A DNA stretch of 64,000 nucleotides from Patescibacteria group bacterium UBA3466 (GCA_002378195.1 DFRJ01000003.1:32879-96878); one strand, 5' to 3'. Positions 9,904 to 49,285 are shown, counted from the first letter of the stretch. A program made the numbers and translations. Notes: generated by a model not told the origin, from the letters alone.

Positions 9904-9912
9904 AATTAAACT

Positions 9913-19299: not shown

Positions 19300-19335
19300 G
19301 AGCTGATCAAACTAAGAAGGTCAGTTTCAGAAACT

Positions 19336-19986
19336 ATGGAACCTGATCCAATTGAAATTTCTACTGAAGGGAGCTCGCTTGTAGCTACCACTAGTCCACT
19401 ACCTGAGGTGGGTGGGTTTGATATCTTTGCTTATCTGGGTTCATTGTTTGGAAATAGTGAGACATTTGCTAGTTTGACCACCGGCAGTGGTTTTATGAGT
19501 TTTTTAGCTAGTCTGTGGTTGACTGTTGCGATCATTTCTTCCATCTTTTCAATCTTTTTTTTGGTTATTTACGTTTTTGCTTCCATGCGACGAACACTTT
19601 ATCTGGGACTCTTGGCTCAAGAGACAGTTGACCAAGAAGAATTGTGGGCGCAGTTGTACGGACAGCGGTCAGAAAATAATCGTATTAAGAGTGTTTTGGC
19701 AAACGCAGCTTCGAGTAACCCGAATGATTGGAAATTGGCGATTATTGAAGCTGATATAATTTTAGATGAGACGCTGAAAGAGAGGGGTTTCGTGGGGGAT
19801 TCATTGGGTGAGAGGTTGAAGTCGGTATCGGCTAACCAGCTTGCATCAATCGGCGATGCTTGGGAAGCGCACAAGGTTAGAAATAATATTGCGCACAAAG
19901 GCGCAGACTTTGTTCTCACTAAGAGACTGGTAGACGAAACAATCGGTCGTTACCAAAGAGTTTTTAAAGAGTTTGGATTGATGTAG
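19336..19986 (+). CDS. hypothetical membrane protein
   Basis: Long ORF, one strong TM helix (LWLTVAIISSIFSIFFLVIYVF). No recognisable motif. Confidence 0.35.
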   Translation: MEPDPIEISTEGSSLVATTSPLPEVGGFDIFAYLGSLFGNSETFASLTTGSGFMSFLASLWLTVAIISSIFSIFFLVIYVFASMRRTLYLGLLAQETVDQEELWAQLYGQRSENNRIKSVLANAASSNPNDWKLAIIEADIILDETLKERGFVGDSLGERLKSVSANQLASIGDAWEAHKVRNNIAHKGADFVLTKRLVDETIGRYQRVFKEFGLM

Positions 19987-20041
19987 TTGCTAATCTGAGC
20001 TAAATAGTGTATTTTCTATACCTACTGATTCGCTCAGAAAC

Positions 20042-20096
20042 AGCGGGGTGGAGGAGAGGTACCGAGCGGAAAGATTATCTGACTCATAACCTCCCG
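20042..20096 (+). repeat. partial 5' copy of tRNA-Met (acceptor-5' and D-arm 22/22 nt identical, then a degenerate anticodon-arm)
   Basis: agcggggtggaggagaggtacc is identical to the first 22 nt of the tRNA at 20138. ctcataacctcc recurs. Confidence 0.5.
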
Positions 20097-20137
20097 GGGT
20101 TTCGCTAAAGAGGGAGTAGAAGTAAAAAATAATATCC

Positions 20138-20208
20138 AGCGGGGTGGAGGAGAGGTACCTCGGGAGGCTCATAACCTCCAGACCCCGGTTCGATTCCGGG
20201 CCCCGCAA
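20138..20208 (+). tRNA. tRNA-Met (anticodon CAT)
   Basis: Manual cloverleaf fold. D-stem gagg/cctc, anticodon stem ggagg/cctcc with loop ctCATaa, T-arm cccgg-ttcgatt-ccggg, A73. Position 1:72 is an A:A mismatch. Confidence 0.8.
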
Positions 20209-20210
20209 CA

Positions 20211-20250
20211 AATACAAATAAGACCAGCTTCGGCTGGTCTTATTTGTATT
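20211..20250 (+). terminator. terminator hairpin after tRNA
   Basis: aaatacaaataagaccagc ttcg gctggtcttatttgtatt. Confidence 0.7.
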
Positions 20251-20408
20251 ATGAATGCGGAGGCTAGAGAGCCAACTGCTTGGCTCTCGTCGGAATCGAA
20301 CGGTCGGAGCGGTGTGAGTTTACGAACGAGCGAGACGGGGTCGAGAGTACTTACTAGAATTAGAGCGAAGCGAATTATTATAGTTAGTAACTCGTGACTC
20401 GATTCCGG
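20251..20408 (+). repeat. tRNA-associated structured repeat, copy A
   Basis: About 90% identical over about 97 nt to 23967-24070. Hairpin at 20266-20287. Left part cggaatcgaac is the reverse complement of the tRNA-Met T-loop. Ends with tcgattccgg (20399-20408), a direct copy of that T-arm. Confidence 0.55.
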
Positions 20409-20549
20409 TTGCTACAGAACCAGTACACCTTTTGGAAATTGAAATTTCTCAAAAGGTTTTACAAAAACTTCCCAAGTTTTTTCACCCCGCAACAAGTTAA
20501 CAAAAGGTCGCGAGCAAAGCTCGCGACCTTTTGCTATAATCCAAGCCAT

Positions 20550-21278
20550 ATGCAATGTGTAATTCTAGCGGCCGGAAAAGGAAGTCGCCTAAAACCTTTA
20601 ACAGAAAATACTCCAAAGCCACTAGTAAAAGTAGCTGACAAATCTTTGCTCGACCACATCGTTGAAGCGCTTCCGAGCGCTGTCGATAGCCTCATTATCG
20701 TGACTGGCTACTTAGAAGACCAAATTCGTGACCATTGTGGCGATGAATTTCATGGTCGTAAAGTAACTTACGTGCACCAGGAAGAGCAGAAAGGTACAGC
20801 TCACGCACTCTGGCTGTGTAAGGAGCACTTGATCGGTAAAGGACGTTTTTTGTTTATGTATGCCGATGATCTTCATGGTGCTCAAGATATAGCGAGAGCT
20901 ACTTCGTACTCTCGTTCTATGCTAACGCTGACTACCAATAATCCAGAAAAGTTTGGTATTGTAGTGCGTCATCCTGACGGTACCCTAGCAGAAATGATAG
21001 AAAAACCAGAACATCCGCCTTCAAACCTAGCGTCGACCGGAGTGATGGTGCTTGATGATAATATCTTTAAGTTTGACCCTTACGCAAAGATGACCAAGGG
21101 AGAGTACTACCTAACCGACGTGATTGCTGAGTATGCTCGAGAATATCCGATTGCGGTGGTAGAGCAGGGGTTGTGGATTCCGATAGCTTATCCGGAAGAC
21201 ATTGAAAGAGCGGAAGAGATTTTAGAATCTTTCAAAGGTACTATTGGAGGAAATGTATTGAAGCAAACGACAAAATAG
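20550..21278 (+). CDS. sugar-phosphate nucleotidyltransferase
   Basis: MQCVILAAGKGSRLKPLT...KPLV motif. Start chosen at the ATG preceded by a TATAAT box. The ORF track extension 20394-20549 overlaps the repeat. Confidence 0.7.
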   Translation: MQCVILAAGKGSRLKPLTENTPKPLVKVADKSLLDHIVEALPSAVDSLIIVTGYLEDQIRDHCGDEFHGRKVTYVHQEEQKGTAHALWLCKEHLIGKGRFLFMYADDLHGAQDIARATSYSRSMLTLTTNNPEKFGIVVRHPDGTLAEMIEKPEHPPSNLASTGVMVLDDNIFKFDPYAKMTKGEYYLTDVIAEYAREYPIAVVEQGLWIPIAYPEDIERAEEILESFKGTIGGNVLKQTTK

Positions 21279-21306
21279 TGTACTCTAGCGCCACACAGAG
21301 GAAATA

Positions 21307-21330
21307 ACTTTCCTCATTTGCTGATGTAAG
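21307..21330 (+). repeat. upstream partial copy of tRNA 5' flank (tcctcatttgctgatgtaag)
   Basis: Near-identical to 21391-21410, which spans the promoter-proximal sequence and the first nucleotides of the tRNA at 21400. Confidence 0.4.
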
Positions 21331-21399
21331 CAAAGCTTGCCTCAGCGGCATTCGGAACTAGAATATAAAAGTTAACTTTGATATTCTGATTCCTCATTT

Positions 21400-21473
21400 G
21401 CTGACGTAGCTCAGTTGGTTAGAGCGTAGGACTCATAAACCTAAGGTCGGAGGTTCAATTCCTCCCGTCAGCA
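21400..21473 (+). tRNA. tRNA with CAT anticodon (Met, or Ile2 if lysidinylated)
   Basis: Manual fold. gctgacg acceptor, D-arm gctc/gagc, loop ctCATaa, T-arm ggagg-ttcaatt-cctcc, 3' acceptor cgtcagc, A73. Confidence 0.8.
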
Positions 21474-21506
21474 CAAGAAAATCCCTCCGGGGATTTTTTG
21501 TTGACG
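21474..21506 (+). terminator. terminator hairpin
   Basis: aaaatccctccggggatttttt. Confidence 0.7.
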
Positions 21507-21605
21507 GAGTAAGTGCTGGGAGCACTTACGTGGGGAGTTGAAAAGGTTGCCAGTTAGTTTTGAACGAAGTGAGAAAACTAACGACAACCTGTACTGAACC
21601 TGTAA

Positions 21606-21656
21606 GGTTCAATTCCTCCCGTCAGCACAAGAAAATCCCTTCGGGGATTTTTTGCT
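21606..21656 (+). repeat. direct duplicate of the tRNA 3' half plus its terminator
   Basis: ggttcaattcctcccgtcagcacaagaaaatccc(t)tcggggattttttg matches 21451-21500 with one change. Separated from the tRNA by a 100-nt spacer that contains its own hairpins. Confidence 0.6.
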
Positions 21657-21677
21657 GACTGTTGGTATAATAATCTT

Positions 21678-21905
21678 ATGAATGCAACAACCATTATCGG
21701 AATTATCGGAGCATCTCTTATCCTTGTAGCATTTATTTTAAATCAAACAGGGGAGTGGTCGAAAGACTCGTTCTCATATGACCTTGTGAATGCTGTCGGG
21801 TCAGCTGTATTAATTTACTACGCCTACTTACTTACCAGCTACCCGTTTATGGTTTTAAACGGAGTGTGGTTCGTAATTTCATTTAAAGATTTGCTGAGAA
21901 GGTAG
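21678..21905 (+). CDS. small membrane protein
   Basis: 75 aa with two predicted TM helices. Confidence 0.3.
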   Translation: MNATTIIGIIGASLILVAFILNQTGEWSKDSFSYDLVNAVGSAVLIYYAYLLTSYPFMVLNGVWFVISFKDLLRR

Positions 21906-21968
21906 ATACAATTAATACACATAAAAATGACAAAGCCGCTGTTAAGCGGCTGTAGAAAGTTGTCCCGG

Positions 21969-22808
21969 TTATACACCAGGAGTGAATCCGATGAGTACCT
22001 TCTTGCGATTTGGGTCACCGAGGGATTGTGCTATGAGAGAGGTGTATTTACTCTCCAGTTGTCCAGCAGCGGCTTGGGCTTCAAGCATGCGGATCGTTCT
22101 CTCGAGCGGTATTCCAGCTTTGTACGGTCGGAAGGCCATCAAAGCTTCAAGTACATCAATTACGGCAAAGAATTTACCAGCAAAAGATATCTCTGAAGCT
22201 TTGAGTCCTCTTGGATATCCGCTCCCGTCGAGTCTTTCGTGATGTTCTAGGGCGCAGTCAGACAAAAATCTCACTAAAGGGTTGAAGTCAATTACAGACA
22301 AACCGTTTATTTGATCAATGAAGATGCTGCCACGATTCTCGATAATTTGGCTGGATAGGGTGGTGTGGGCTTGCTGCTCGATCATTTCCTCCTGGGTTAA
22401 TCGGCGATCAAGCTCATAGATCTTGTTCCACTTTGGTTTAGCTATATCGTGCAAGTATGCCGCTAGACCAAATAAAGACCTGCCACATGGGTTTAAGACA
22501 AATCCATCAGGTGTTTCTTCAAAAAAAATACCCTTCAGGATTACATTCTGCAGATATGCGTCAGAAAAAGAATCAACCTCCTCTTCAGACCAGATCAACC
22601 AGCCTGCTACATTTTTTGCAATGAGAGACGTGTTGTGCGAATGATTTCGCATTGAAGTAATCATTTCGACCATATCTACTTCTGCTTGGTCTTTAAACCA
22701 GAGCAAAAATCTAGATAAGTCGGAACATACTTCGTTGACGTCTCGGTTACTTACGGCAACGTTCAAGCATAGACTTATCAGATCTTTAGACATGGTGTTT
22801 AACCTCAT
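21969..22808 (-). CDS. HD-GYP domain c-di-GMP phosphodiesterase
   Basis: HD...HHERLDGSGYP signature. Confidence 0.75.
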   Translation of the reverse strand: MRLNTMSKDLISLCLNVAVSNRDVNEVCSDLSRFLLWFKDQAEVDMVEMITSMRNHSHNTSLIAKNVAGWLIWSEEEVDSFSDAYLQNVILKGIFFEETPDGFVLNPCGRSLFGLAAYLHDIAKPKWNKIYELDRRLTQEEMIEQQAHTTLSSQIIENRGSIFIDQINGLSVIDFNPLVRFLSDCALEHHERLDGSGYPRGLKASEISFAGKFFAVIDVLEALMAFRPYKAGIPLERTIRMLEAQAAAGQLESKYTSLIAQSLGDPNRKKVLIGFTPGV

Positions 22809-22892
22809 GCTGGGTTATTTGTGAAAGATCTACCGCTATAAAAACACTACATTTAAAATCAGGTATCGTCAATAGTAATTTCAAGAGTATTC

Positions 22893-22921
22893 TTTTGTGT
22901 GCGATTGAAGGGATTCGAAAC
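22893..22921 (-). repeat. degenerate copy of tRNA-Asp 3' end (T-arm and acceptor)
   Basis: gcgattgaagggattcgaaac versus gcggtcgaagggattcgaaccc at 23005-23026. Confidence 0.45.
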
Positions 22922-22965
22922 TTACAGTTTCAGTACCTCAAATGTGTGTCCCGCACACAATTTCA

Positions 22966-22999
22966 ATCGACCACAAAAAAATCCCTAACGGGATTTTTT
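22966..22999 (-). terminator. terminator for tRNA-Asp (minus strand)
   Basis: aaaaaatcccgttagggattttttt on the minus strand. Confidence 0.6.
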
Positions 23000-23003
23000 A
23001 CTG

Positions 23004-23077
23004 CGCGGTCGAAGGGATTCGAACCCTCGGCCTTCCGCGTGACAGGCGGATGCTCTAACCAGCTGAGCTACGACCGC
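23004..23077 (-). tRNA. tRNA-Asp (anticodon GTC)
   Basis: Reverse complement folds as gcggtcg acceptor, D-arm gctc/gagc, anticodon arm tccgc-ctGTCac-gcgga, T-arm gaggg-ttcgaat-ccctt. Confidence 0.85.
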
Positions 23078-23141
23078 AAAGAGTGGCAAGAGTATAGCTG
23101 GTTTGCGTAATTTTTGCAATAACTATTGCTATAATTTAAAT

Positions 23142-23741
23142 ATGAAATTAAATCGCATTCAAAAAGGGTTGCTGCTAGTAAATATCGCTGTTGTGGTTGG
23201 GTTTAGTTGGTATTACTTGCAGGCGGCAGATTATGAGTTTCTAGCTTATGCGGGCACGATAGCAGTTGTGACAGCTCTTTTATTCGGTACTCTTAAATGG
23301 TCGCGGTTTTCAAATGGAATTATTCTCGGGGTGACTATTTGGGGACTGTTGCATATGCTCGGAGGTAGTGTGATGACGGCCGACGGAGTATTGTATGCAT
23401 GGCGGATCTTCCCATTTTTTGATGGTGGCGGAGAGTTTTATATTCTGAAGTTTGATCAAGTAGTACACGCGTTCTTGTACGGTATTGTCGGTTTGATGTT
23501 TTATCACCTGTTGCGTGAAGTGGTTGGAGTTAAAACTCACACACTACTAGTAGCAGCGGTAGCTATCTTTGCTGGAGCTGGCTTTAGTATTATCAACGAG
23601 ATCATCGAATTTCTGGCGGCGGTAAATATTCCAAATACTGGAGTAGGGGGCTATCACAATACCGTGCTTGATATGATTTTCAATTTAGCTGGAGCATTGA
23701 TAGCTGTGGTTATTAAGGTGGGTATCGATAAACGTAACTAG
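23142..23741 (+). CDS. hypothetical multi-pass membrane protein
   Basis: Five or six hydrophobic helices. No motif recognised. Confidence 0.35.
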   Translation: MKLNRIQKGLLLVNIAVVVGFSWYYLQAADYEFLAYAGTIAVVTALLFGTLKWSRFSNGIILGVTIWGLLHMLGGSVMTADGVLYAWRIFPFFDGGGEFYILKFDQVVHAFLYGIVGLMFYHLLREVVGVKTHTLLVAAVAIFAGAGFSIINEIIEFLAAVNIPNTGVGGYHNTVLDMIFNLAGALIAVVIKVGIDKRN

Positions 23742-23812
23742 CAAAAGATTTCTCGATTTGTTATGCTATCACGGCTTGTAATACCGAGCGGTAGTTTTGC
23801 TTATTATTACTT

Positions 23813-23885
23813 GCCAACGTAGCTCAGTCGGTAGAGCGCATCCATGGTAAGGATGAGGTCCGCGGTTCAATCCCGCGCGTTGGCT
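23813..23885 (+). tRNA. tRNA-Thr (anticodon GGT)
   Basis: Manual fold. gccaacg acceptor, D-arm gctc/gagc, anticodon arm catcc-atGGTaa-ggatg, T-arm cgcgg-ttcaatc-ccgcg, 3' acceptor cgttggc. Confidence 0.85.
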
Positions 23886-23887
23886 CA

Positions 23888-23926
23888 GCAGCAAAATTCC
23901 CTAGCATCCGCTAGGGAATTTTGCTG
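23888..23926 (+). terminator. terminator hairpin
   Basis: gcagcaaaattccctagc atcc gctagggaattttgctgc, a perfect 18-bp stem. Confidence 0.7.
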
Positions 23927-23930
23927 CCTG

Positions 23931-24091
23931 GCAACGCAGGAAGCAAACTGCTTTGCTTCCGGTAGGGATTGAAGGTCGCAGCGATGTGAGTTTGCGAACA
24001 AGCGAGACGGGGTCGAGAGTACTTACTAGAATTGGAGCGTAGCGAACAATTATAGTTAGTAACTCGTGACCAATCCCGCGCGTTGGCTCAG
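23931..24091 (+). repeat. tRNA-associated structured repeat, copy B, ending in a 21-nt direct copy of the tRNA-Thr 3' end
   Basis: Hairpin at 23939-23960 covaries with the copy A hairpin. gggattgaa is the inverted tRNA-Thr T-loop. caatcccgcgcgttggctcag (24071-24091) equals 23867-23887. Confidence 0.55.
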
Positions 24092-24093
24092 CT

Positions 24094-24124
24094 AAATGCC
24101 TAGCTTCTTGCTAGGCATTTTTGT
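24094..24124 (+). terminator. second terminator-like hairpin after the partial tRNA copy
   Basis: aaatgcctagc ttctt gctaggcattttt. Confidence 0.5.
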
Positions 24125-24140
24125 ATACTCAACTATCACT

Positions 24141-25019
24141 ATGAGTACTGAATTTCAATCTTCAGAAAATCGCATAGCCTCCATTGAGGCAGCCATGCTT
24201 CAGCCAGATTTTTGGAATGATCCGCAAAAGGCACAAGAGTTGATCAAAGAACTGCAAGAGTTAAAGGATTTGGCGGATGGCAAAGGCAAGTATCATCGCA
24301 ATGATGCAATTTTTTCGATTGTAGCAGGGGCTGGAGGTGATGATGCGGAAGACTTCGCGCGTATGCTAGTGGAGATGTATCAGAAGTATGCTGAGAGCAA
24401 GAGTTGGGATGTGGTGATAATCGACAGTAATGCCAACGACCATAATGGTTACCGCAATATCACTTTCGAAGTCCAAGGGAAGGATGCCTACGGCACACTG
24501 ATGCACGAGTCCGGGGTGCATCGTTTGGTGCGTATCTCACCTTTTAATAGTAACGGAAAGAGACAGACTTCTTTTGTCTTGGTCGAAGTGTCGCCGAAGC
24601 TCGAAGATCTGAGTTCAGTGGAGCTGAGTGAAGAAGATTTAGATATTTCTTTTGCGCGCTCTGGCGGCGCTGGTGGGCAGAATGTAAACAAGCGAGAGAC
24701 GGCGGTGCGAATTGTGCATAAGCCAACCAATATCTCCGTCAATATTTCATCTGAACGCTCACAAATGCAAAATCGGGAGAAGGGGATGAATTTGTTGGCC
24801 GGTAAGATATATGCTTTCAATGAAGCGCAGCGCGAACGTGAACTGCAAGGGCTAGCGGTTGAGAAGACTCTTAAAATTGAATGGGGGAGCCAGATTCGTT
24901 CGTACGTTTTGCACCCATATCAGATGGTGAAAGATCATCGTCATGATCTAGAAGTGAGAAATGTAGATAAAGTATTAGACGGTGATATACAACCGTTTAT
25001 AGACATTTATAATAATTAA
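24141..25019 (+). CDS. prfB: peptide chain release factor 2, short form with no evident frameshift site
   Basis: SPF tripeptide (RISPFNS) and GGQ motif ([11 protein letters not shown]). Confidence 0.8.
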
Positions 25020-25043
25020 TCAGCTCATGATATACTGTTAATC

Positions 25044-25727
25044 ATGATTTATTTTGATAACGTTTCGAAGCTGTATAGCGACGGTCGCTCAGCTGCCCTC
25101 CAAGAAGTCACGTTTCAAGTTGCCCCCAAAGAGTTTGTATCAATTGTTGGACACTCAGGGGCTGGTAAAACCACTCTACTCAAGATGATTATTGCTGAAG
25201 ATCAGCCATCAAATGGTCAGGTTTTTTTCGAGTCACTTGATGTGCATCGTATTCCCAAGGCAAAGTTGCCAAGCTACCGTCGCAAGATCGGAACTATCTT
25301 CCAGGATTTCAAATTACTCTCACACAAGACTGCTTATGAAAACGTCGCCTTTGCAATGGAAGCAAATGGTCGTACCGACGCTGAGATTGCCGAGAACGTA
25401 CCACACGCATTGGCTTTGGTAGACCTAGAGGACAAGGCATGGAATTTCCCGGGTGAACTGTCAGGAGGTGAGAAGCAGCGGGTAGCCATCGCCAGAGCGA
25501 TTGTAAATCAACCAGATATTATCATCGCAGATGAGCCGACTGGAAATTTGGATCCGATTGCTACGTACGAAGTAGTACAGATTTTAAGAAAGATTAACGA
25601 TCTTGGCACTACCGTCATCATGACCACTCACAACAAAGGGGTGATTGATGAGATAGAGCGCCGGGTCATCACTATGGATGATGGTCGGATAGTGCGTGAT
25701 GATGCTAGTGGTAAGTACGTTTTGTAA
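25044..25727 (+). CDS. ftsE: cell division ATP-binding protein FtsE
   Basis: Walker A GHSGAGKTTLL and ABC signature LSGGEKQR. Confidence 0.85.
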   Translation: MIYFDNVSKLYSDGRSAALQEVTFQVAPKEFVSIVGHSGAGKTTLLKMIIAEDQPSNGQVFFESLDVHRIPKAKLPSYRRKIGTIFQDFKLLSHKTAYENVAFAMEANGRTDAEIAENVPHALALVDLEDKAWNFPGELSGGEKQRVAIARAIVNQPDIIIADEPTGNLDPIATYEVVQILRKINDLGTTVIMTTHNKGVIDEIERRVITMDDGRIVRDDASGKYVL

Positions 25728-25734
25728 TTAATTT

Positions 25735-26658
25735 ATGATAACTGGATTAAGAAGAGTAGTTAAAGCAGGGTTTGTTGGTTTTTGGCGTAATGCCTACGTA
25801 TCGTTGGCTTCAATTTTTGTACTTACTATCGCACTGTTTGTGATCGGTGTGACAATGTTTTTGAATCAGCTCTTGGAGACTTCACTGGTCAACCTACAGT
25901 CTCAGGTTGATATTAACGTTTACTTTGTTCCCGAAGCTCCTGATGATGAGGTGCAGAGTTTGGTTACTGCTGTGGAGGCTTTGCCTGACGTTGTGTCGGT
26001 CAAATTTACCTCACGGGAACAGGCACTTGAAGAGTATCGACAGCGTAATCAAAATAATGAGATTTCCCTCCAAGCCCTTGAAGAGCTAGATGAAAATCCA
26101 CTTGGCGCCAACATTGCTATTTTGGCTGGAGAGACATCACAATACGAAAACATCTCGCGGTTTATTGAGGAGCAGAGAGATTTGGCGCAATCGCCAATAA
26201 TCAGCAGTGTAACTTATGCCGATGACGAAACGACCCGCGATTCAATCGATCGTTTGACCAGTATTATTAATGCAACCGAACGCGCTAGTTTGATCATTAT
26301 GGGCATCCTGCTACTAGCTGCTGTACTTATCACTTTCAATACCATTCGATTGGCTATTTACACTTCACGGGAAGAAATTTCTATCATGCGTTTAGTTGGC
26401 GCGGGCAATATGTTTATTCGCGGGCCTTTCATGTTGCAGGGGATTATGTACGGCTTTATCTCTGGCTGTTTGGCTCTCTTAATCTTTTACCCGCTCTTGG
26501 TTTGGCTTGGTCCACGCACACAGGAATTCTTCGAATTAAATTTATTCGATTACTACATGGCAAACCTCGGTGACATCTTCGGTATTCTAGTCGGGATTGG
26601 AATTGCTCTCGGCCTTATCTCAAGTACTTTTGCAGTAGCACGATATTTACGAACTTAA
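25735..26658 (+). CDS. ftsX: cell division permease FtsX
   Basis: Four-TM FtsX topology with a periplasmic loop. Follows ftsE. Confidence 0.8.
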   Translation: MITGLRRVVKAGFVGFWRNAYVSLASIFVLTIALFVIGVTMFLNQLLETSLVNLQSQVDINVYFVPEAPDDEVQSLVTAVEALPDVVSVKFTSREQALEEYRQRNQNNEISLQALEELDENPLGANIAILAGETSQYENISRFIEEQRDLAQSPIISSVTYADDETTRDSIDRLTSIINATERASLIIMGILLLAAVLITFNTIRLAIYTSREEISIMRLVGAGNMFIRGPFMLQGIMYGFISGCLALLIFYPLLVWLGPRTQEFFELNLFDYYMANLGDIFGILVGIGIALGLISSTFAVARYLRT

Positions 26659-26669
26659 CTCTCTGATTT

Positions 26670-28343
26670 ATGGCAACAAAAGCAAACAACAAAAGAGCGA
26701 CTAAAAAGAAGTCGACTACTAAGTATATTTTTGTGGTTGGGGGAGTGATGAGTGGAGTCGGGAAAGGGGTCGCTTCTTCGTCAATCGCTACACTCCTAGA
26801 ATCACGCGGACATAATGTGACCGCCATGAAAATCGACCCGTACATTAATGTTGATGCTGGTACCATGAACCCAACTGAACACGGTGAGGTGTTTGTTTTG
26901 AAAGACGGTTTAGAGACCGACCAAGACATGGGTAACTATGAACGCTTTCTCAATAAAGATCTCCCGGCCATAAACTACATGACTACTGGTAGCGTCTATC
27001 AATCGGTGATTAGAAAAGAACGAAACCTGGAGTATAAAGGAAAAAATGTAGAGGTGGTGCCGGACATCCCTCTTGAAGTAATTCGCCGCATTAAAGCAGC
27101 CGGAGAAAATGCTGATGCTGACATTGTACAGGTAGAAGTGGGAGGTACGGTTGGGGAGTATCAAAATGTACTTTTCCTTGAGGCAATCCGTATGATGAAG
27201 ACAGAAGAGCCAGATAATGTAGCAGTGGTGATGGTGAGCTATTTACCAGTGCCTGGTTCAATCGGAGAGATGAAGACCAAACCCACTCAGACAGCAGTCC
27301 GTATGCTCAACAGCGCCGGAGTATTTGCTGACATGATTGTATGTCGGAGTAAAATTTCTGTTGACCAAAAGCGTAAAGAAAAAATTGCAAAGTTTTGTAA
27401 TGTGAAAGTAGAAAATGTTATCTCTGCTCCAGATGTCGACAGTATTTACGATATTCCACTACACTATGAAAAAGACGGCCTTTCCGAAGGCTTGCTTAAA
27501 ACACTTGGTCTGTCTACTAGAAAGGTGGCCGACCTAAAGAACTGGAAACGGTTTGTTAAAAGCTCCAAGAACGAAGGCGACACGGTGAAGATTGCGGTGG
27601 TCGGTAAGTACTTCAATTCAGGTGATTTTGTTTTGTCAGACGTCTATATCTCGATTCTCGAAGCGATTAAGTTTTCTGCCTATAAACTGCGGCTAAACCC
27701 AGAAATTGACTACCTATCAGCCGAAGATTTTGCTGATAAGAAAAACCTGCGTAAATTGAATCAATATGACGGTGTGTTGGTGCCGGGCGGTTTTGGCACT
27801 ACTGGCATTGAGGGGAAATTAAATGTGATCGAGTATGTGCGCAAGAAACGGATACCGTACTTTGGTATCTGCTACGGGATGCAGTTGGCGGTACTGGAAT
27901 ACGCCAAGAACGTAGCAAAAATTAAGAACGCTAGTACCGAAGAGATTGACCCGAAAGCCGACCATTTAGTAATTGGTGTAATGGACGAGCAGAAAGAGAA
28001 GATTGCAAAAGGAGATATGGGCGGCACGATGCGGCTGGGGCAGTATGAGGCCAAGCTGAAGAAAGGTTCGGTGGCCGCTAAGGCATACAAAGCACAATCG
28101 ATAGTGGAGAGACATCGTCATCGTTATGAAGTTAATCCTGAGTATATCAATCGATTGACCGATAAAGGTTTAGTCTTTTCCGGTACCTCTCCTGACGGCA
28201 TGTTGATGGAGATTGCTGAATTGCCACAAGAAGACCATCCATTTTTTGTTGGAGTACAGTTTCATCCTGAGCTACAAGCGAGGCCGCTTGACCCGCATCC
28301 ACTTTTCACAGCTTTCATCAAAGCGGCGTATGAGAGTGATTAG
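26670..28343 (+). CDS. pyrG: CTP synthase
   Basis: VVGGVMSGVGKG synthetase N-terminus and glutamine amidotransferase GICYGMQ motif. Confidence 0.95.
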   Translation: MATKANNKRATKKKSTTKYIFVVGGVMSGVGKGVASSSIATLLESRGHNVTAMKIDPYINVDAGTMNPTEHGEVFVLKDGLETDQDMGNYERFLNKDLPAINYMTTGSVYQSVIRKERNLEYKGKNVEVVPDIPLEVIRRIKAAGENADADIVQVEVGGTVGEYQNVLFLEAIRMMKTEEPDNVAVVMVSYLPVPGSIGEMKTKPTQTAVRMLNSAGVFADMIVCRSKISVDQKRKEKIAKFCNVKVENVISAPDVDSIYDIPLHYEKDGLSEGLLKTLGLSTRKVADLKNWKRFVKSSKNEGDTVKIAVVGKYFNSGDFVLSDVYISILEAIKFSAYKLRLNPEIDYLSAEDFADKKNLRKLNQYDGVLVPGGFGTTGIEGKLNVIEYVRKKRIPYFGICYGMQLAVLEYAKNVAKIKNASTEEIDPKADHLVIGVMDEQKEKIAKGDMGGTMRLGQYEAKLKKGSVAAKAYKAQSIVERHRHRYEVNPEYINRLTDKGLVFSGTSPDGMLMEIAELPQEDHPFFVGVQFHPELQARPLDPHPLFTAFIKAAYESD

Positions 28344-28387
28344 GGCACTGTCTCTCTAGAGAATCCTGAAGAAATGTGATAAGGTAG

Positions 28388-28430
28388 TGGCCACAAAAGA
28401 TGATCAATTACCCGAAAAGTCTAATGGTAA
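28388..28430 (+). repeat. upstream partial copy of tRNA-Gln 5' region including 10 nt of flank
   Basis: gatgatcaattacccga..gtctaatggta matches 28561-28590. Confidence 0.5.
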
Positions 28431-28570
28431 GAAATCGAAGATTTCTTCCTTGGCCGGCACTCAGAAGTAATGAGTAAGTAAACTTTCTCATCTTCCTCGC
28501 TTGGCCAAGTAGGACACCTCGTGTCCTCTATAGACAATCGTGTATAGATATTAAAATTAAGATGATCAAT

Positions 28571-28641
28571 TACCCGATCGTCTAATGGTAGGACACTTGG
28601 TTTTGGTCCAAGTAATCGGGGTTCGAGTCCCTGTCGGGTAG
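28571..28641 (+). tRNA. tRNA-Gln (anticodon TTG)
   Basis: Manual fold. tacccga acceptor, D-arm gtct/ggac, anticodon arm cttgg-ttTTGgt-ccaag, T-arm cgggg-ttcgagt-ccctg, 3' acceptor tcgggta, G73. Confidence 0.85.
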
Positions 28642-28795
28642 CCTGCAAGAAAACACCCTTTTGGGTGTTTTCTGTTTGAGCAGGCTACCCGACAAGAAAT
28701 AATCTGGGGGATTATTTCGTGGGACTCGAAAAGCGGTTTGAGATATTTTGGAGCTAGCGAACAAAATATCCAAACGCTGCACAGAATCTGTAAGA
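28642..28795 (+). repeat. repeat R1, copy a: long hairpin that pairs the tRNA-Gln 3' end, plus a conserved core of about 80 nt
   Basis: tagcctgcaagaaaacaccc tttt gggtgttttctgtttgagcaggctacccgac. About 85% identical to 49152-49285. Confidence 0.5.
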
Positions 28796-28814
28796 TTCGA
28801 GTCCCTGTCGGGTA
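28796..28814 (+). repeat. direct copy of tRNA-Gln 3' end (ttcgagtccctgtcgggta)
   Basis: 19/19 nt identical to 28622-28640. Confidence 0.55.
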
Positions 28815-29002
28815 AACAAGCACTTGGACCCAGGTTTATTTTTTCTTGTGCGAGAACATTTATTCAGTGATCGACAAGTTTTGACTTATATACAAATTAT
28901 TCACAGTTTATGCACAAAAAATTATTGTTGTAGTGTGTTCACATAAAAGCTAATGTTAAAGGGTCTTTTACGCTAGAAAGTTTATACAACTAAAAGTCCA
29001 TC

Positions 29003-32000
29003 ATGTTGCATAAAAATATATGTCGATCTGAATTTATTCGATCTCGTCGTACGCTATTTAAAGCCACATCTCTTCTGATTGTGGTTTCTGTTTTATTAGC
29101 TCCTATAGCTCATGTGTATGGTTTCCATCCAGATAATGATTCCAGCTTAGTGAACAACGACCTGTTAATTTCGAAGAATGTCTCATCATTATCAGATAAT
29201 GGCGTTCAGGTTAATTCTTTTGATGGGTCTCTTTCTTATTCTTACCCTGTCCTTTATCCGTCAGGAGTTAATGGATTCGGCCCTAGTCATAATCTAAGTT
29301 ACAGCTCTAATTCCAAAGAGGAATATTCAATTCTTGGTATTCATGGATGGAATCTCGACATTCCATCCATTAAACTCATTAATAAAACGGGTATAGAAAA
29401 CCTGTATTCAGATCCAGTTTATTATTCTTCAATTTCTGGGGAGTTAGTTCAAGTTGGGGTGAGTTCAGAGTATATTTCAAAGAACGAATCAGGAGATTTT
29501 CATTCGTATACTTTAAGTAATGGTGTTTGGACAATAAGTACAAAATCAGGAGATGTTTATACGCTTGGCAGTACAAGTGCTAGTAGGATAGTTAATCCAA
29601 ATGATAGTAGTGAGATATATGCATGGTATACAAACGAGATAGTTGATACTAATGGAAATTCGATAGATTACTCATACTACAAAGATAACGAATCGTTACT
29701 TATAGATACCATTGAGTATGGCGGTATATACGAAATTGATTTTGAAAGAGTTTCAAAGAATTCAACCTCTACTACCCACGAAGCGACCTTTGAAATCAAT
29801 CAGACGAAGGCGGTTGATAGAATACAAGTCATAGTAGATGGTCAAGATGAGTACTACTATGATCTTACTCTGACTTCAGCAGTGAATCCTAATCATGTAC
29901 TTTTAACTCAAATTGACATGGTAGGTGGTAGTGACCAGCTGACAACCGAATTTACATACAATGATAATTCGCTCATGCCATTTTCTGCTGATCAAGATGA
30001 TGATGGTGCAAACGGTAAATGGGACATTGGAAACGGTAAATGGCTTTATGAAAAAGGCGCTTCAAACAAATGGAGGTTTGTAGATGTGAATGGAGACGGG
30101 TTAGCAGATTTCGTGGGTGATGGAGATGTATACCTCAATGACGGCGAGGAATTTGTTTTTAATTTAACATGGTCAACAGCATTGATTGATTTTATCTACG
30201 ACGATACATTGTCACTACGATTTCCAGATATTAATGGCGATGGCTTGGTCGACATAATCTATTCTACTGACGAAGCATATAATACTGGTTGGTTTAGTGA
30301 CGTTTATTTAAATAATGGATCTGGTTGGACTTATGACGCATCGTTTGACGAGAGCCTTGCAACTAATAGCGCCAGGTTTGCATTTGTTGACACAGATGGA
30401 GTGGATGATCTTGGGTGGAGAGTGATTGACGTAAACGGAGATGGTTTGGCAGATCTAATTCATGATAATGATTTAAATTATCCGGACAACACTAATGCTG
30501 TGTATATTAATGACGGTAGCGAGTGGACTCTGAGTAGTGATTTCATAATACCTGCTGATAACGGATTTGCATTACACAACGCGTATGGATTTATTATAGA
30601 CATAAATGGTGACGATCTACCGGATTTGGTCAGTTCATATGAAGTGAATAGTTCTTGGGTAAAGAGAGTTTATGTGAATACTGGTACTGGTTGGGTTGAT
30701 CATGATGGATTTAAGAATAGTCTACCAGCTGCATTCGTTGACGATCCTGGCAGTAGTTCTAATTTCATAGATCACGGTTATCGTCTTGTTGATATCAATA
30801 ATGATGGATTAGCTGATATCGCTTGGCAAACAGATAGTGGGTCAAATCGCCTGAGATATTATCTCAACTTAGGTGATAGTTGGGACACAACTTTTACAGA
30901 AACTGCATGCTGTAATCCCGGCTGGGGCCAAAAGTTACAATACGGAGCTACAGCTTTTGTAGATATTAATGGTGACTCATTAATCGATATATTGTCGGCA
31001 CATAAAATTAGTAGTAGTAACAAACTTGATTCAATTCATATTGCAGCTGGTGGAAAGCCCGATGTTCTGACAGAGGTGGTAAATCAACATGGTGGAACAA
31101 CAAAAGTTTTCTACAAAGGAAGTCAGGAAACAGTTTCAGGATCACAACGTAACGTAGATCTACCAATTGCATTATATGTTGTGGCGTCAACTACCAAAGA
31201 TAATGGCTTCGGACAGGTTATCGAGACCCTTTATGATTATGATTATGGTGAGATATATTTTGATACCGCAGACTTACGAGATCGACGGTTTGGTGGTTTT
31301 GGTGAGTTTACGGAAGAGGTTGTGGGTCTTAACAAAACCATCGTTAATTTTCACCAAGGTAACGACTTAGATTCTAGCTCAGAAGAAGAAAGTGATGGAG
31401 AGCATTTAATTGGTAGAATGTATCAGACTAAGATAACCAATAACTCCGACAGTCTTTATCTTCTAAATCGAGTTAACTATTCTACAACTAGTCTAGGAGA
31501 CGGAAGTGTATTTACTAAGACTGATAGTGTTGTAGAGCTTGCTTATGATGGAGACGTAGACGAAAGGGCTAAAGCTGTTTCGTATACGTACGATGATACT
31601 CATGGTTCAGTATTGTCTATGGTTGAATATGGAGAAGTAAACGGAAACTCAGACGGTACTTATACAGATTCAGGGACTGATAAGAGGACAAGTCTTTATG
31701 AATATGCGACAAGTTCGGATGGATTGGTAGCTGTAACAAAAGAAACCCTTAATGATAATAGTAATACCAAAATTCAAGAATCAGTCTATTATTATGACGA
31801 TTTAACTTATGGATCTGCTGCTCTTGGCAACCTAACAAAAAGAGAAGATTGGGTTACCGGGGCCACTTTTGTTGACACTGAATGGGACTATAACAGCAAC
31901 GGACTAGTAACTACAGAAACTGACCCAAAAGGAAATGCTATTAATTATGATTACGATACCTATAATTTGTATCTAGCTTCTTCTACAAATGCTGAAGGTC

Positions 32001-36208: not shown

Positions 36209-36509
36209 AACAAAAATAATAGAAAAATACAAAGATGTTCATCTCGGATACTATGATTATAAAGATGATAAGTATCGAATTGAGGATTTCTTAAATGAAG
36301 ATTTTCTTGTGGAATGGATTATAGGTATCGCAGATAAATATGATCAAGGTGTTACTCATCAAGGTCTAGACTTTATCAATGAATACTATGGTATTAAAAA
36401 TATTATTGATAAAGTGCTTGAGAAAAGTCCCCAATTCCCATTCGACGGTGGCGATCCTTACAAATTTCTTGAAGGTCAGAGAGAGCGGAGCTATTCCGCA
36501 AAGGACTAA
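36186..36509 (+). CDS. putative cognate immunity protein (overlaps toxin stop)
   Basis: ATG overlaps the last codons of the toxin gene. Small acidic protein. Position follows the toxin-then-immunity rule of RHS loci. No motif. Confidence 0.4.
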   Translation: MKRMEEDKTKIIEKYKDVHLGYYDYKDDKYRIEDFLNEDFLVEWIIGIADKYDQGVTHQGLDFINEYYGIKNIIDKVLEKSPQFPFDGGDPYKFLEGQRERSYSAKD

Positions 36510-36673
36510 TTGACCTTTCTCAAGAGAGTCAAATCCAAAACTATTAAGGTAGCTTACGTTCAATAAATTCATCGCTACCTTTTGTCAAAACCGACAGATA
36601 GAACGACTGATTGTTTGCTGTCTGGGTAATGATATAGTTTGAAAAATAACAATTAATATGAAATAGTTCCTGT

Positions 36674-38632: not shown

Positions 38633-39064
38633 TGGTAAGACAACCTCCTTTTGTCTTTTCCTTTCATTTTCTACTTGTAGAGCTCTATAAAGATATATAG
38701 ACACAAGTCCCCAAAAGATGAGGCTCGTAATGACACTACCCGTAAAAGCCATTATGTACCACTTATCGAATGTGTAGAGGGTCAATAAACCTACGATGCC
38801 CCACCGGTGTCCAAAGTACGTGAATACCATGAAGGGAACGTACATAAGTATTGAAACAAGCATGTCAGCGAGAGTAAAAAGTTCAGGGTAGAACTGAGTT
38901 AATCCGAAGCTCCACGCGAACATAGCAACTAGTATCAATAGAGGTATGCCACGAGCTGATTCGTATACTTTCAAAGTCTTATAATCAGCAACTTGCCTCT
39001 CAAGCTCTTCCTTAGTTAAAGACAGGGAGCTGAATAATTTTTTCTTGTTTGCAGTTTCTTCCAC
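38615..39064 (-). CDS. hypothetical membrane protein
   Basis: Three or four TM helices. No motif. Confidence 0.3.
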   Translation of the reverse strand: MEETANKKKLFSSLSLTKEELERQVADYKTLKVYESARGIPLLILVAMFAWSFGLTQFYPELFTLADMLVSILMYVPFMVFTYFGHRWGIVGLLTLYTFDKWYIMAFTGSVITSLIFWGLVSIYLYRALQVENERKRQKEVVLPLEAEA

Positions 39065-39067
39065 AAG

Positions 39068-48597: not shown

Positions 48598-48615
48598 CGA
48601 GTCCCTGTCGGGTAG
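48598..48615 (+). repeat. direct copy of tRNA-Gln 3' end (cgagtccctgtcgggtag), right border of island
   Basis: 18/18 nt identical to 28624-28641. Confidence 0.55.
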
Positions 48616-48706
48616 CAAAGTATTGACATAAAGTACATAATATGTTATGATAAAAAAGTTAGTGAATTCTCACTGACGACGATGACGATGATGATAGGGG
48701 AAAAAG

Positions 48707-49139: not shown

Positions 49140-49285
49140 TAACGTCGTTTCAGACTCGTAGCCTGCTCAAACAGAAAACACCCAATAGGGTGTTTTCTGT
49201 TTGAGCAGGCTACTCGATAAAAAATAATCTGGAGGATTATTCCACGGGGATCGAAAAGCGGTTTGATATTTTAGTTTTACTACTT
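49140..49285 (+). repeat. repeat R1, copy b: perfect 26-bp hairpin plus conserved core
   Basis: gtagcctgctcaaacagaaaacaccc aata gggtgttttctgtttgagcaggctac. Core aataatctggRggattatt...tcgaaaagcggtttga is shared with 28642-28790. Confidence 0.5.

What the first reader, a model, noticed from the sequence alone, without database searches (positions are those of the whole stretch)
20042..28814. Every tRNA gene in the window is flanked by partial copies of itself, and the terminator is duplicated as well
All five tRNAs are followed within 70-180 nt by a partial direct copy of their 3' ends. tRNA-Met 20138 has a 5' partial copy at 20042 and a 3' T-arm copy at 20399. tRNA-CAT 21400 has a 5' flank copy at 21311 and a 3' half plus terminator copy at 21606-21656. 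tRNA-Asp has a 3' copy at 22893. tRNA-Thr has a 21-nt 3' copy at 24071. tRNA-Gln has a 5' copy at 28388 and 3' copies at 28796 and 48598. Downstream 3'-end copies are the usual footprint of tRNA-targeted integration. The upstream 5' copies and the co-duplicated terminators are less usual. Together they suggest repeated cycles of insertion and excision, or an active mechanism that duplicates tRNA ends.
Basis: seen in the sequence. Interest (0 to 1): 0.6.

Follow-up and report, generated by a model that had tools for sequence, protein, structure and literature searches.

The report
Tiny structured inserts flanking tRNA genes
Every tRNA gene in this marine Patescibacteria (CPR) genome piece carries a miniature, protein-less, hairpin-rich insert whose junctions are partial tRNA copies, and the same apparently undescribed insert families sit behind tRNA and tmRNA genes across this phylum.

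Summary
All five tRNAs have exact copies (13-27 nt, or 10+11 nt split) of their T-loop-to-3' end 83-190 nt downstream. Three also have 5' copies upstream. Control windows give at most about 8-11 nt.

Each downstream spacer also holds an antisense copy of the same tRNA segment, and each holds a conserved folded scaffold. Type A lies after tRNA-Met1 and tRNA-Thr. Type B lies after Met2, Asp and Gln.

A type-A pattern scan found more than 120 metagenome loci. Eighty-six of 129 instances lie within 450 nt downstream of a co-oriented tRNA of almost any identity, and others follow tmRNA. The scan found none in viral contigs, and Rfam has no matching family.

The scaffold shows strong covariation. 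Close relatives have different types, or no insert, at the same tRNA. One near-identical contig pair differs by an exact 184-nt insert bounded by a 19-nt tRNA repeat. No integrase or transposase is linked.

Best reading: these are non-autonomous, site-specific insertion modules that keep the tRNA intact. The mechanism is inferred to be a folded single-strand intermediate acted on by an enzyme encoded elsewhere. A co-transcribed structured RNA remains a serious rival.

The parts
20042..20137 (+). 5'-side module of tRNA-Met1. It holds a displaced copy of tRNA positions 1-22 (20042-20063), an anticodon-loop piece (20083-20094) and a spacer.
20138..20209 (+). tRNA-Met (CAT), initiator-like; intact.
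20210..20301 (+). Left part of the Met1 3' module: terminator hairpin 20210-20250, antisense of the acceptor 3' strand 20256-20263, hairpin H1 20264-20289, antisense of the T-loop/T-stem 20290-20301.
20302..20398 (+). Type-A scaffold (two-domain fold), 91-92% identical to the copy at 23974-24070.
   Evidence: 96.3 bits
20399..20495 (+). Displaced tRNA-Met1 3' copy, split in two (20399-20408 and 20483-20495) by an inverted type-B-like module (20409-20482). The same nested arrangement occurs in relative L005.
21310..21389 (+). 5'-side module of tRNA-Met2: displaced 5' flank plus the first 11-12 nt of the tRNA (21310-21331), a small hairpin, a degenerate antisense copy and a second hairpin. Contains a promoter-like site at 21337-21364.
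   Evidence: z = -4.1
21400..21474 (+). tRNA (CAT) Met2; intact.
21475..21654 (+). Type-B 3' module: terminator 21475-21500, anti-acceptor 21501-21507, H1 21508-21530, anti-T 21531-21542, long hairpin 21543-21590, GTACTGAACCTGTAA motif 21591-21605, displaced tRNA 3' copy plus repeated terminator 21606-21654.
   Evidence: (z = -3.4)
22897..23001 (-). Short type-B 3' module of tRNA-Asp: terminator 22975-23001, antisense 22962-22974, hairpin 22940-22961, GTACTGAAACTGTAAG motif 22921-22939, displaced and diverged 3' copy 22897-22920. The antisense segment pairs better with the displaced copy than with the tRNA.
23003..23077 (-). tRNA-Asp (GTC); intact.
23813..23886 (+). tRNA-Thr (GGT); intact.
23887..24122 (+). 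Type-A 3' module: terminator 23887-23927, anti-acceptor 23928-23937, H1 23938-23961, anti-T 23962-23973, scaffold 23974-24070, displaced 3' copy 24071-24092 (starts at T-loop C56), second terminator 24093-24122.
   Evidence: z = -3.9; 103.5 bits
28397..28559 (+). 5'-side module of tRNA-Gln: displaced 5' flank plus tRNA positions 1-24 (28397-28432), 'U' hairpin inserted at the D-loop (28433-28509; 75% identical to L006 448-516), a D-stem/anticodon-stem piece (28510-28527) and a spacer.
   Evidence: z = -4.0 and -4.6
28571..28643 (+). tRNA-Gln (TTG); intact.
28647..28814 (+). Type-B 3' module: terminator 28647-28677, anti-acceptor plus trailer 28678-28694, H1 28695-28719, anti-T 28720-28730, long hairpin 28731-28778, motif 28779-28795, displaced 3' copy 28796-28814.
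   Evidence: (z = -6.2)
48598..48616 (+). Second displaced copy of the tRNA-Gln 3' end, about 20 kb downstream. It bounds an island that carries a large serine recombinase.
49155..49272 (+). Orphan left part of a Gln-type module (acceptor-like end, terminator, antisense, H1, anti-T). It is 85% identical to 28676-28749 and has matched changes on both arms.

Best explanation
The partial tRNA copies are the junction repeats of miniature (about 80-260 nt), protein-less, strongly folded insertion modules. These modules occupy the T-loop or 3' end of tRNA and tmRNA genes in Patescibacteria. A second, mirror-image kind occupies the D-loop or 5' end.

Shown:
- A 3' module reads: tRNA up to T55, then S1 (C56 to the 3' end), often a terminator of its own, then an antisense copy of S (often split by a conserved hairpin, H1), then a conserved scaffold, then S2 (the displaced original end), then the native terminator.
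- Two scaffold types occur in the window. Type A has two domains and is about 95 nt. Type B has a long hairpin followed by a small hairpin with a CUGUAAG loop.
- The tRNA stays functional because S is present twice.
- Modules are gained, lost, nested and stacked into arrays.

Inferred:
- The unit moves, or once moved, as a folded single strand. This could be a dumbbell or circle in which S pairs with its antisense copy, with the terminator/H1 and the scaffold forming the two loops.
- It joins the tRNA top strand at T55/C56 (variant 1) or at the extreme 3' end (variant 2) through a single strand exchange.
- The enzyme is encoded elsewhere in the genome. This is analogous to integron attC sites and to CTX-phage/Xer integration.
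- Loss occurs by recombination between S1 and S2.
For: Architecture and fold:
- All five window tRNAs show the architecture.
- The modules fold better than shuffled sequence, with z from -2.3 to -6.2.

Distribution of type A:
- The type-A pattern gives more than 120 metagenome loci.
- Of 129 instances, 86 have a tRNA within 450 nt upstream, always on the same strand, covering nearly all anticodon families.
- Several of the remaining instances follow tmRNA genes.

Fold conservation:
- 97.8% of cells in the alignment are paired.
- 173 cells show changes on both sides of a pair, against 52 in shuffles (0 of 500 shuffles reach the observed value). Structures slid by one to three columns pair only about 30%.
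- Helix P1 is fully Watson-Crick in 77 of 87 sequences, using six different base combinations.
- The tRNA-sense strand folds better than the opposite strand in 115 of 115 cases.

Mobility or turnover:
- The same tRNA-Thr/prfB site carries A, inverted B, C or nothing in different relatives.
- The two window type-A scaffolds are 92% identical but have different antisense segments. An 88% identical core occurs in L039, whose prfB is only 56% identical.
- Arrays, nested modules and a module with a cargo gene (L246) occur.
- L202 and L292 differ by an exact 184-nt insert. It carries its own terminator, and the native terminator stays behind S2.
- L274 has an extra 138-nt unit compared with L258.

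Antisense copies look templated:
- A perfect 12-nt antisense match is found in 93 of 390 tRNAs, against 1 of 322 controls.
- In variant 2 the antisense copy includes the locus-specific trailer.
- G-T and A-C mismatches between antisense and sense copies are equal, 27 versus 21.

Not phage-borne:
- 0 hits in viral contigs, and no hit in the phage or plasmid collections.

The insertion points (T-loop, extreme 3' end, tmRNA) are the sub-sites that integrases of genetic elements are known to prefer in tRNA and tmRNA genes. This last point is from my own knowledge of Williams 2002 and was not re-read here.
Against: - No enzyme was identified. There are only 4 Xer-like tyrosine recombinases in 1.79 Mb of Patescibacteria DNA, none next to a module and none in the window. 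No IS200 or RAYT homologue was found.
- No excised form or true insertion event was observed. The filled/empty pair is better read as a precise loss, because the antisense arm of that module is already imperfect.
- How a module acquires both S and its antisense for a new tRNA is unexplained.
- The strict co-orientation with tRNAs, the strong RNA-like covariation and the invariant G-U pair fit a transcribed RNA equally well.
- The modules are fixed and 100% identical across the marine population that the window comes from.
- Helix 3 of the alignment is invariant partly because the search pattern required those bases.
Confidence: 0.5

Rival explanations
1. The scaffolds are genes for a new family of structured non-coding RNAs expressed as tRNA-RNA dicistrons. 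Plant tRNA-snoRNA genes processed by RNase Z are a precedent. In this reading the antisense segment pairs with the tRNA 3' end or trailer, or with the decoy copy S2, to close the fold or to direct processing. The tRNA copies would then be functional parts of the RNA rather than scars.
For: - 82 of 84 type-A-like scaffolds that have a nearby tRNA lie on the same strand and downstream of it.
- Covariation is strong, there is an invariant G-U pair, and the tRNA-sense strand is more stable in 115 of 115 cases.
- Many modules have no terminator between the tRNA and the module, for example type C in L012 and L013.
- The Met1 module, including its nested part, is retained between the window and L005 even though prfB is only 76% identical.
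- The modules are fixed in the clonal marine population.
- The Asp antisense segment matches the diverged displaced copy better than it matches the tRNA.
- tRNA-snoRNA dicistrons are cited in PMC12045711.
Against: - Most modules are preceded by a strong terminator hairpin, and the L202 module brought its own. That is an odd design for an RNA that depends on read-through.
- No promoter is evident (the scan was weak).
- Presence is patchy: 21 of 204 tRNAs in 13 of 58 loci.
- Type B occurs in inverted orientation (L005 Thr, window Met1).
- Modules are nested, stacked and truncated like selfish DNA.
- Mismatches between antisense and S show no wobble bias.
Confidence: 0.28
2. These are classical footprints. 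Integrase-encoding phages or genomic islands integrated into the tRNA genes, and almost all of each was later deleted, leaving attL/attR repeats with a short remnant between them.
For: - Direct repeats of the tRNA 3' part, starting in the T-loop or at the 3' end, are the known signature of such integration.
- tmRNA genes are also targeted.
- The pair 28796/48598 does bracket a 20-kb island with a large serine recombinase, a methylase and defence-like genes.
Against: - The remnants are not random leftovers. They belong to conserved families with a covarying fold.
- Their sizes cluster tightly. The scaffold core lies 100-140 nt from the tRNA end in 59 of 86 cases.
- 31 of 33 upstream repeats lie within 450 nt.
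- The type-A core has 0 hits in 2.9 million viral contigs.
- No integrase is linked.
- The internal antisense copies and the 5'-side modules are not explained.
Confidence: 0.1
3. No mobile element is involved. The sense-antisense-sense pattern arises from local replication errors, such as fold-back or template switching at tRNA and terminator hairpins, which are strong structures in highly transcribed genes.
For: - The order S, hairpin, antisense, S is the form expected from two template switches.
- The S1-terminator-antisense stretch forms one long palindrome centred on the terminator loop.
- The antisense copies look templated and then decay neutrally.
Against: - The DNA between the copies is not local. 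The same 95-nt scaffold (88-92% identical) lies behind different tRNAs and in distant genomes.
- The terminator inside the L202 insert differs from the native one.
- The junction positions are specific to each scaffold type.
Confidence: 0.07

Closest known systems
Integron gene cassettes with folded attC sites (and CTX-phage/IMEX integration by host Xer recombinases)
   Same: - The unit is an imperfect inverted repeat (antisense ... sense) with a variable or structured tip.
- One specific strand folds.
- Units stack head-to-tail into arrays next to a fixed site (L253, L212).
- Some units carry a single cargo gene (L246).
- No recombinase is encoded inside the unit.
- Sequence identity with the target starts abruptly on one side of the junction only, as expected for a single strand exchange.
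   Different: - The attachment site is a tRNA or tmRNA T-loop or 3' end, not attI or dif.
- There is no GTTRRRY core; the junction is ...CTCGTGAC|C.
- No IntI gene was found.
- The 'tip' is a large, sequence-conserved two-domain scaffold.
- The arms are copies of the target gene and differ from one tRNA to the next.
tRNA/tmRNA-targeting integrative elements and their non-autonomous derivatives (CIMEs, satellite-like remnants)
   Same: - Insertion into the T-loop or the extreme 3' end of tRNA and tmRNA genes.
- The gene is restored by a copy of its 3' end.
- Direct repeats bound the insert.
   Different: - The inserts are 10-100 times smaller.
- They have no integrase and no viral or plasmid counterparts.
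- They contain an internal antisense copy and a conserved folded scaffold.
- A mirror-image family sits on the 5' side.
REPINs, MITEs and IS200/IS605-derived palindromic elements (PATEs)
   Same: All are short, non-coding, multi-copy, hairpin-forming elements that depend on an enzyme encoded elsewhere and lie in intergenic DNA next to terminators.
   Different: - No RAYT or IS200-type transposase was found in 1.79 Mb.
- The insertion site is strictly tRNA/tmRNA-linked and co-oriented.
- The terminal repeats derive from the target, not from the element.
Dicistronic tRNA-ncRNA genes (plant tRNA-snoRNA, mascRNA-type processing) and retron msr/msd RNAs
   Same: - A structured RNA lies directly downstream of, and co-oriented with, a tRNA.
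- The ends are closed by an inverted repeat, as in the a1/a2 repeat of retron RNAs.
   Different: - No box C/D motif or k-turn pattern was recognised by eye, and no reverse transcriptase gene lies next to the modules.
- Most copies are preceded by a terminator.
- The copies are patchy, nested and sometimes inverted.

Membership tests
tRNA-targeting integrative element (tyrosine-integrase island or prophage) | Direct repeat of the tRNA 3' segment at both ends of the insert, with the gene restored | tested here: met
tRNA-targeting integrative element (tyrosine-integrase island or prophage) | Integrase gene inside or next to the insert, and a kilobase-scale element | tested here: not met
   The inserts are 80-260 nt. 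A phmmer search with XerC found 4 hits in 1.79 Mb, none adjacent to a module and none in the window. Pfam scans of the window ORFs that were tested found only one large serine recombinase, at 39068-40813.
tRNA-targeting integrative element (tyrosine-integrase island or prophage) | A free (phage or plasmid) form that carries the attP sequence | tested here: not met
   0 matches to the type-A core in viral contigs. No BLAST hit in the phage or plasmid collections.
Integron cassette / attC | Imperfect inverted repeat that folds on one strand, with units in arrays | tested here: met
   Antisense and sense arms. Strand asymmetry in 115 of 115 cases. Arrays in L253, L212 and L274.
Integron cassette / attC | Conserved R'/R'' core (GTTRRRY / RYYYAAC) and a neighbouring intI gene with attI | tested here: not met
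   The junction is CTCGTGAC|C (type A) or CTGTAAG|N (type B). No tyrosine recombinase lies nearby.
IS200/IS605-derived PATE or REPIN | Cognate Y1 HUH transposase or RAYT present in the genome | tested here: inconclusive
   There was no phmmer hit in 1.79 Mb of Patescibacteria loci.
Any Rfam 15 RNA family (including ribozymes, HEARO and tmRNA-like families) | Match to a covariance model | tested here: not met
   The gathering scan and the E<=10 scans of the window modules and of L013, L229, L244, L246 and L253 returned only tRNA, tmRNA, RNase P and LOOT, plus chance-level hits elsewhere.
Retron ncRNA | Reverse transcriptase gene immediately downstream of the ncRNA | tested here: not met
   The downstream genes are an NTP transferase, prfB, a small membrane protein and an RHS-type giant protein.
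Retroviral-type primer-binding site | Complementarity to the mature tRNA 3' end including CCA | tested here: not met
   The antisense copies continue into the genomic trailer and not into CCA, for example 28678-28694.
Guide-RNA mobile systems (IS110 bridge RNA, TnpB/IscB omega RNA, TIGR-Tas) | Cognate effector gene next to the RNA; guides held in internal loops or arrays | tested here: not met
   No effector ORF lies next to the modules. The internal loops are small and conserved. TIGR arrays differ in form (PMC12045711). Effector families were not searched with profiles.

The most novel reading that the evidence does not exclude
Patescibacteria carry a previously undescribed, abundant class of gene-free cassettes that use tRNA and tmRNA T-loops as a universal docking site. 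Each cassette is a self-folding single strand, DNA or RNA. Its stem is a copy of the target paired with its antisense, and its loop is a conserved about 95-nt two-domain scaffold. The insertion process itself templates the inverted and direct duplications of the tRNA end. In effect this would be an integron-like platform anchored on tRNA genes, driven by an unknown host enzyme or by the scaffold RNA itself.
Probability: 0.3. Interest if true: 0.85.

Novelty: new variant of a known kind. Interest (0 to 1): 0.7.

Why it matters
If the modules are mobile, they are among the smallest site-specific elements known. They would also represent a new solution to inserting into an essential gene without harm: the element carries or copies the gene's end, together with its mirror image.

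They are numerous in a phylum with very small genomes, where non-coding DNA is scarce, so something must maintain them. The conserved scaffold is a ready-made handle for finding the responsible enzyme by phylogenetic profiling. It is also a candidate new structured RNA or single-stranded DNA motif for Rfam-type catalogues.

There is a practical consequence too. These modules create pseudo-tRNA fragments, repeated terminators and assembly or annotation traps around tRNA and tmRNA genes in metagenome-assembled genomes.

Tried and rejected
- Type-B motif scan of viral contigs: 120 hits, all chance; only 1 was followed by a T-loop-like sequence, and it lay in coding-like DNA.
- Rfam at gathering and permissive thresholds: nothing on the modules.
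- BLAST of the scaffold against phage and plasmid collections: no match.
- Literature searches: no description found, and exact core strings are absent from 8 million papers. TIGR-Tas was read and set aside. The LOOT search was uninformative.
- Consensus promoter/terminator scan: uninformative. It missed the obvious terminator hairpins.
- Tyrosine recombinase, IS200 and RAYT searches in 1.79 Mb: no linkage.
- GIY-YIG small ORFs: they sit near tRNAs in several relatives and inside two inserts (L036, L053). They are absent from the window and from most modules, so they are probably separate hitch-hikers.
- Structures considered by eye and dropped: k-turn or box C/D, hairpin and HDV-like ribozymes, T-box, RNase P guide sequences, group I and II introns. 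The conserved loops do not fit and Rfam gives no support.
- Primer-binding-site idea: dropped because the antisense copies follow the genomic trailer, not CCA.
- Population variation at the window's own loci: none. Ten contigs are 99.97-100% identical.
- Walking along the 152-kb source contig to reach further tRNAs: not possible under the tool rules. L331 added 4 kb with no tRNA.

Full report
**1. Origin of the window**

The window is from a Patescibacteria (CPR) genome. Its prfB (24141-25016) is at most 80% identical to Paceibacteria and Nomurabacteria genome bins. Contigs that are 99.97-100% identical occur in several marine (Tara Oceans) assemblies, so the source population is clonal.

**2. 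Checking the observation**

ARAGORN and Rfam agree on five tRNAs.

Exact same-strand copies of the T-loop-to-3'-end segment lie 83-190 nt downstream of each tRNA:
- Met1: 10 + 11 nt
- Met2: 27 nt, extending through the terminator
- Asp: 13 nt
- Thr: 22 nt
- Gln: 19 nt, with a second 19-nt copy at 48598

Copies of the 5' flank plus the first 11-24 nt of the tRNA lie upstream of Met1, Met2 and Gln.

Control windows 1.5 kb away give common substrings of 4-11 nt. With an 18-nt probe, 32 of 216 tRNAs score at least 14/18, against 0 of 205 controls.

**3.

Between each tRNA and its downstream copy there is an antisense copy of the same tRNA segment. Exact antisense matches are at 20291-20301, 23965-23973, 28680-28694 and 28721-28730.

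The common order is:
- tRNA
- a terminator hairpin (usually)
- antisense of the acceptor 3' strand
- a hairpin, H1
- antisense of the T-stem and T-loop
- a scaffold
- the sense copy, S

The antisense and sense copies pair with each other, which closes a multi-branch fold. Folding z-scores are -6.2 (Gln), -3.9 (Thr), -3.4 (Met2), -2.3 (Asp) and -1.3 (Met1, whose S is interrupted).

The window has two scaffold types.
- Type A lies at 20302-20398 and 23974-24070. The two copies are about 92% identical although they serve different tRNAs.
- Type B lies after Met2, Asp and Gln. It consists of a long hairpin, then GTAC(T/A)G, then a 4-bp stem with a CUGUAAG loop that abuts the T-loop copy.

In Met1, the displaced copy is itself split by an inverted type-B-like module. 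The same nested arrangement is present in relative L005.

The 5' modules have the mirror-image design: displaced 5' piece, small hairpin, degenerate antisense, second hairpin, then the real gene. They also fold well, with z about -4.

**4. Distribution beyond the window**

In 58 prfB-anchored Patescibacteria loci that contain tRNAs, 21 of 204 tRNAs have a displaced 3' copy that is not a neighbouring paralogue. These 21 lie in 13 loci. This window, with five of five tRNAs occupied, is unusually rich.

A third scaffold type, C, is seen in other lineages.

Of the 129 instances:
- 86 have a tRNA within 450 nt upstream, always on the same strand. Almost every amino-acid identity is represented.
- Several of the 27 apparent exceptions follow tmRNA genes.
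- A few follow other sequences.

The same pattern has 0 hits in 2.9 million viral contigs. BLAST finds nothing in the phage or plasmid collections. No Rfam 15 family matches any module, even at E<=10. Literature searches, including exact core strings, found no description.

**5. The scaffold is a conserved single-strand fold**

In 42 aligned type-A scaffolds, RNAalifold predicts 25 pairs, 12 of which show compensatory double changes. Further measures:
- 97.8% of cells are paired, against about 30% when partners are slid by one to three columns.
- 173 cells have changes on both sides, against 52 in shuffles (0 of 500 shuffles reach this).
- The long-range helix P1 uses six Watson-Crick combinations and is intact in 77 of 87 sequences.
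- The tRNA-sense strand folds better than its complement in 115 of 115 cases (mean -48.3 versus -39.3 kcal/mol). One G-U pair is invariant.

One caveat applies. The invariance of the basal helix of domain 2 is partly imposed by the search pattern.

A covariance model built from this alignment recovers the two window copies. It also recovers ten more diverged copies in the unbiased loci, in the same loci, and mostly at the same positions, as the tRNA-adjacent modules already found there.

**6. Two junction variants**

In variant 1, the scaffold ends ...CTCGTGAC and the sense copy begins at T-loop C56, most often 19 nt from the tRNA end.

In variant 2 there is no long sense copy. The order is tRNA, trailer, terminator, H1, antisense of the acceptor end plus trailer, then the scaffold. 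Here the antisense segment pairs with the real tRNA end and its locus-specific trailer.

The T-loop, the extreme 3' end and tmRNA genes are the sub-sites known to be favoured by integrases. This statement rests on my own knowledge of Williams 2002, which I did not re-read.

**7. Evidence for turnover**

- The tRNA-Thr upstream of prfB carries type A here, an inverted type B in L005, and nothing in L004 and L002. Type C follows tRNA-Thr genes in the prfB-anchored loci L012, L013 and L031.
- An 88% identical type-A core occurs in L039, whose prfB is only 56% identical.
- Modules are stacked or nested in L006, L033, L205, L221, L225, L244 and L253. Composite scaffolds occur in which type-B parts lie inside type A.
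- In L246 a 221-aa ORF sits between the tRNA and the antisense-scaffold-S unit.
- Contigs L202 and L292 are at least 99.9% identical around a tRNA-Gly. L202 has an exact 184-nt insert made of S (19 nt), a terminator that differs from the native one, antisense, H1, antisense and scaffold. The native terminator follows the right-hand S. The antisense arm of this module is already imperfect, so the difference is more likely a precise loss than a fresh insertion.
- L274 has one extra 138-nt unit compared with L258.

**8. Are the antisense copies selected or templated?**

A perfect 12-nt antisense match to the tRNA 3' region lies within 230 nt downstream of 93 of 390 tRNAs, against 1 of 322 controls. 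That set is enriched for type A by design.

In variant 2 the match includes unique trailer sequence, and it is also found at a non-tRNA site (L207). Selection alone is therefore an unlikely origin.

Mismatches between the antisense copy and S show no wobble bias: 27 G-T against 21 A-C. This suggests the stem is made by copying and then decays. The scaffold behaves differently and is conserved.

**9. No enzyme found**

- The window ORFs that were scanned include no integrase, transposase, reverse transcriptase or GIY-YIG gene near the tRNAs.
- In 1.79 Mb of Patescibacteria loci there are four Xer-like proteins, none adjacent to a module. There is no IS200 or RAYT homologue.
- Small GIY-YIG ORFs lie near tRNAs in several relatives and inside two inserts, but not generally.

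**10. Interpretation**

The most economical account is a set of non-autonomous, site-specific insertion modules that keep the target gene intact.

The sense-antisense-sense order has a conserved hairpin module at each turn. This is what one obtains by opening a closed, self-folded single strand, made of a stem of S paired with its antisense and two loops, at the scaffold/S junction, and joining it to the tRNA top strand between T55 and C56. The model accounts for:
- the strict orientation relative to the tRNA;
- the one-sided identity at the junction;
- the terminator that the module carries;
- the arrays.

It parallels integron attC sites and CTX-phage/Xer integration. This mechanism is inference only. 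No intermediate and no enzyme were seen, and retargeting to new tRNAs is unexplained.

The main rival is a functional structured RNA co-transcribed with the tRNA. It explains the orientation, the covariation and the long retention. It fits poorly with the upstream terminators, the inverted and nested copies, and the patchy distribution.

The classical phage or island footprint reading explains only the repeats, with one exception. The pair 28796/48598 brackets a 20-kb island that carries a large serine recombinase.

Pure replication error cannot explain the shared scaffolds.

**11. Verdict**

The modules do not pass membership tests for integrase islands, integrons, IS200-type elements, retrons or any Rfam family. 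They work most like attC-type cassettes or very small non-autonomous integrative elements.

I rate this a new variant of a known kind, with about a 30% chance that it is something more unusual.

Noticed in passing
window 28815-48597: About 20 kb lies between the tRNA-Gln module and a second displaced tRNA-Gln 3' copy at 48598. It holds a 2401-aa RHS/YD-repeat/SpvB-type protein (29003-36208), a TPR protein, a large serine recombinase (39068-40813, minus strand), an N6/N4 DNA methylase, an S24 peptidase, a weak ThsB-TIR-like ORF and a caspase-domain protein. It looks like an integrated island, or cargo bounded by tRNA-end repeats.
   Followed up: partly
window 40973-41097 (+); also L253 1-114 (-): A LOOT RNA (Rfam RF03000, 55 bits) lies immediately next to the start of the large serine recombinase gene. 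A second LOOT copy occurs in an unrelated Patescibacteria contig. The link to the recombinase was not examined.
   Followed up: no
window 49155-49272: An orphan left half of a Gln-type module (acceptor-like end, terminator, antisense, H1, anti-T). Both arms carry matched differences (ctcgtagcc / ggctactcga), as if it once served a different tRNA. No tRNA is adjacent.
   Followed up: partly
window 20330-20372, 24002-24044, 28750-28762, 48578-48588: The apical loops of the scaffold hairpins carry GCGAAGC or GCGTAGC-type motifs (GAGCGAAGCGAA, GAGCGTAGCGAAC, GAGCTAGCGAAC). These match the d(GCGAAGC) class of very stable DNA mini-hairpins (from my own knowledge), which may hint at a single-stranded DNA role.
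   Followed up: no
L036 16689-16934; L053 94-291; L050, L060, L069: Small GIY-YIG nuclease ORFs (about 75-85 aa) sit within a few hundred nt of tRNA genes in several Patescibacteria. In L036 and L053 they lie inside inserts bounded by partial tRNA copies.
   Followed up: partly
L253 13154-13577 and downstream; L226, L250, L272: tmRNA genes carry the same type-A modules as tRNAs. In L253 these form an array of at least three units.
   Followed up: partly
L229 4292-4580; L246 1080-1290; L228; L231: Composite scaffolds occur in which type-B hairpins and an extra GGGTGAGAA...CGCAAGAC hairpin lie between the two domains of type A. Either type B inserted into type A, or a larger ancestral fold exists of which A and B are reduced forms.
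   Followed up: no
window 59128-59479: RNase P RNA, class A (126 bits). It is ordinary and has no flanking module.
   Followed up: no
window 3889-11130: A type IV pilus gene cluster (PilM, PilO-like, two T2SSE ATPases, T2SSF). This is typical of Patescibacteria.
   Followed up: no
window 19141-30019 compared with L321-L330: The tRNA region is 99.97-100% identical in ten contigs from different marine (Tara Oceans and other) assemblies. The population is clonal, and all modules are fixed in it.
   Followed up: yes
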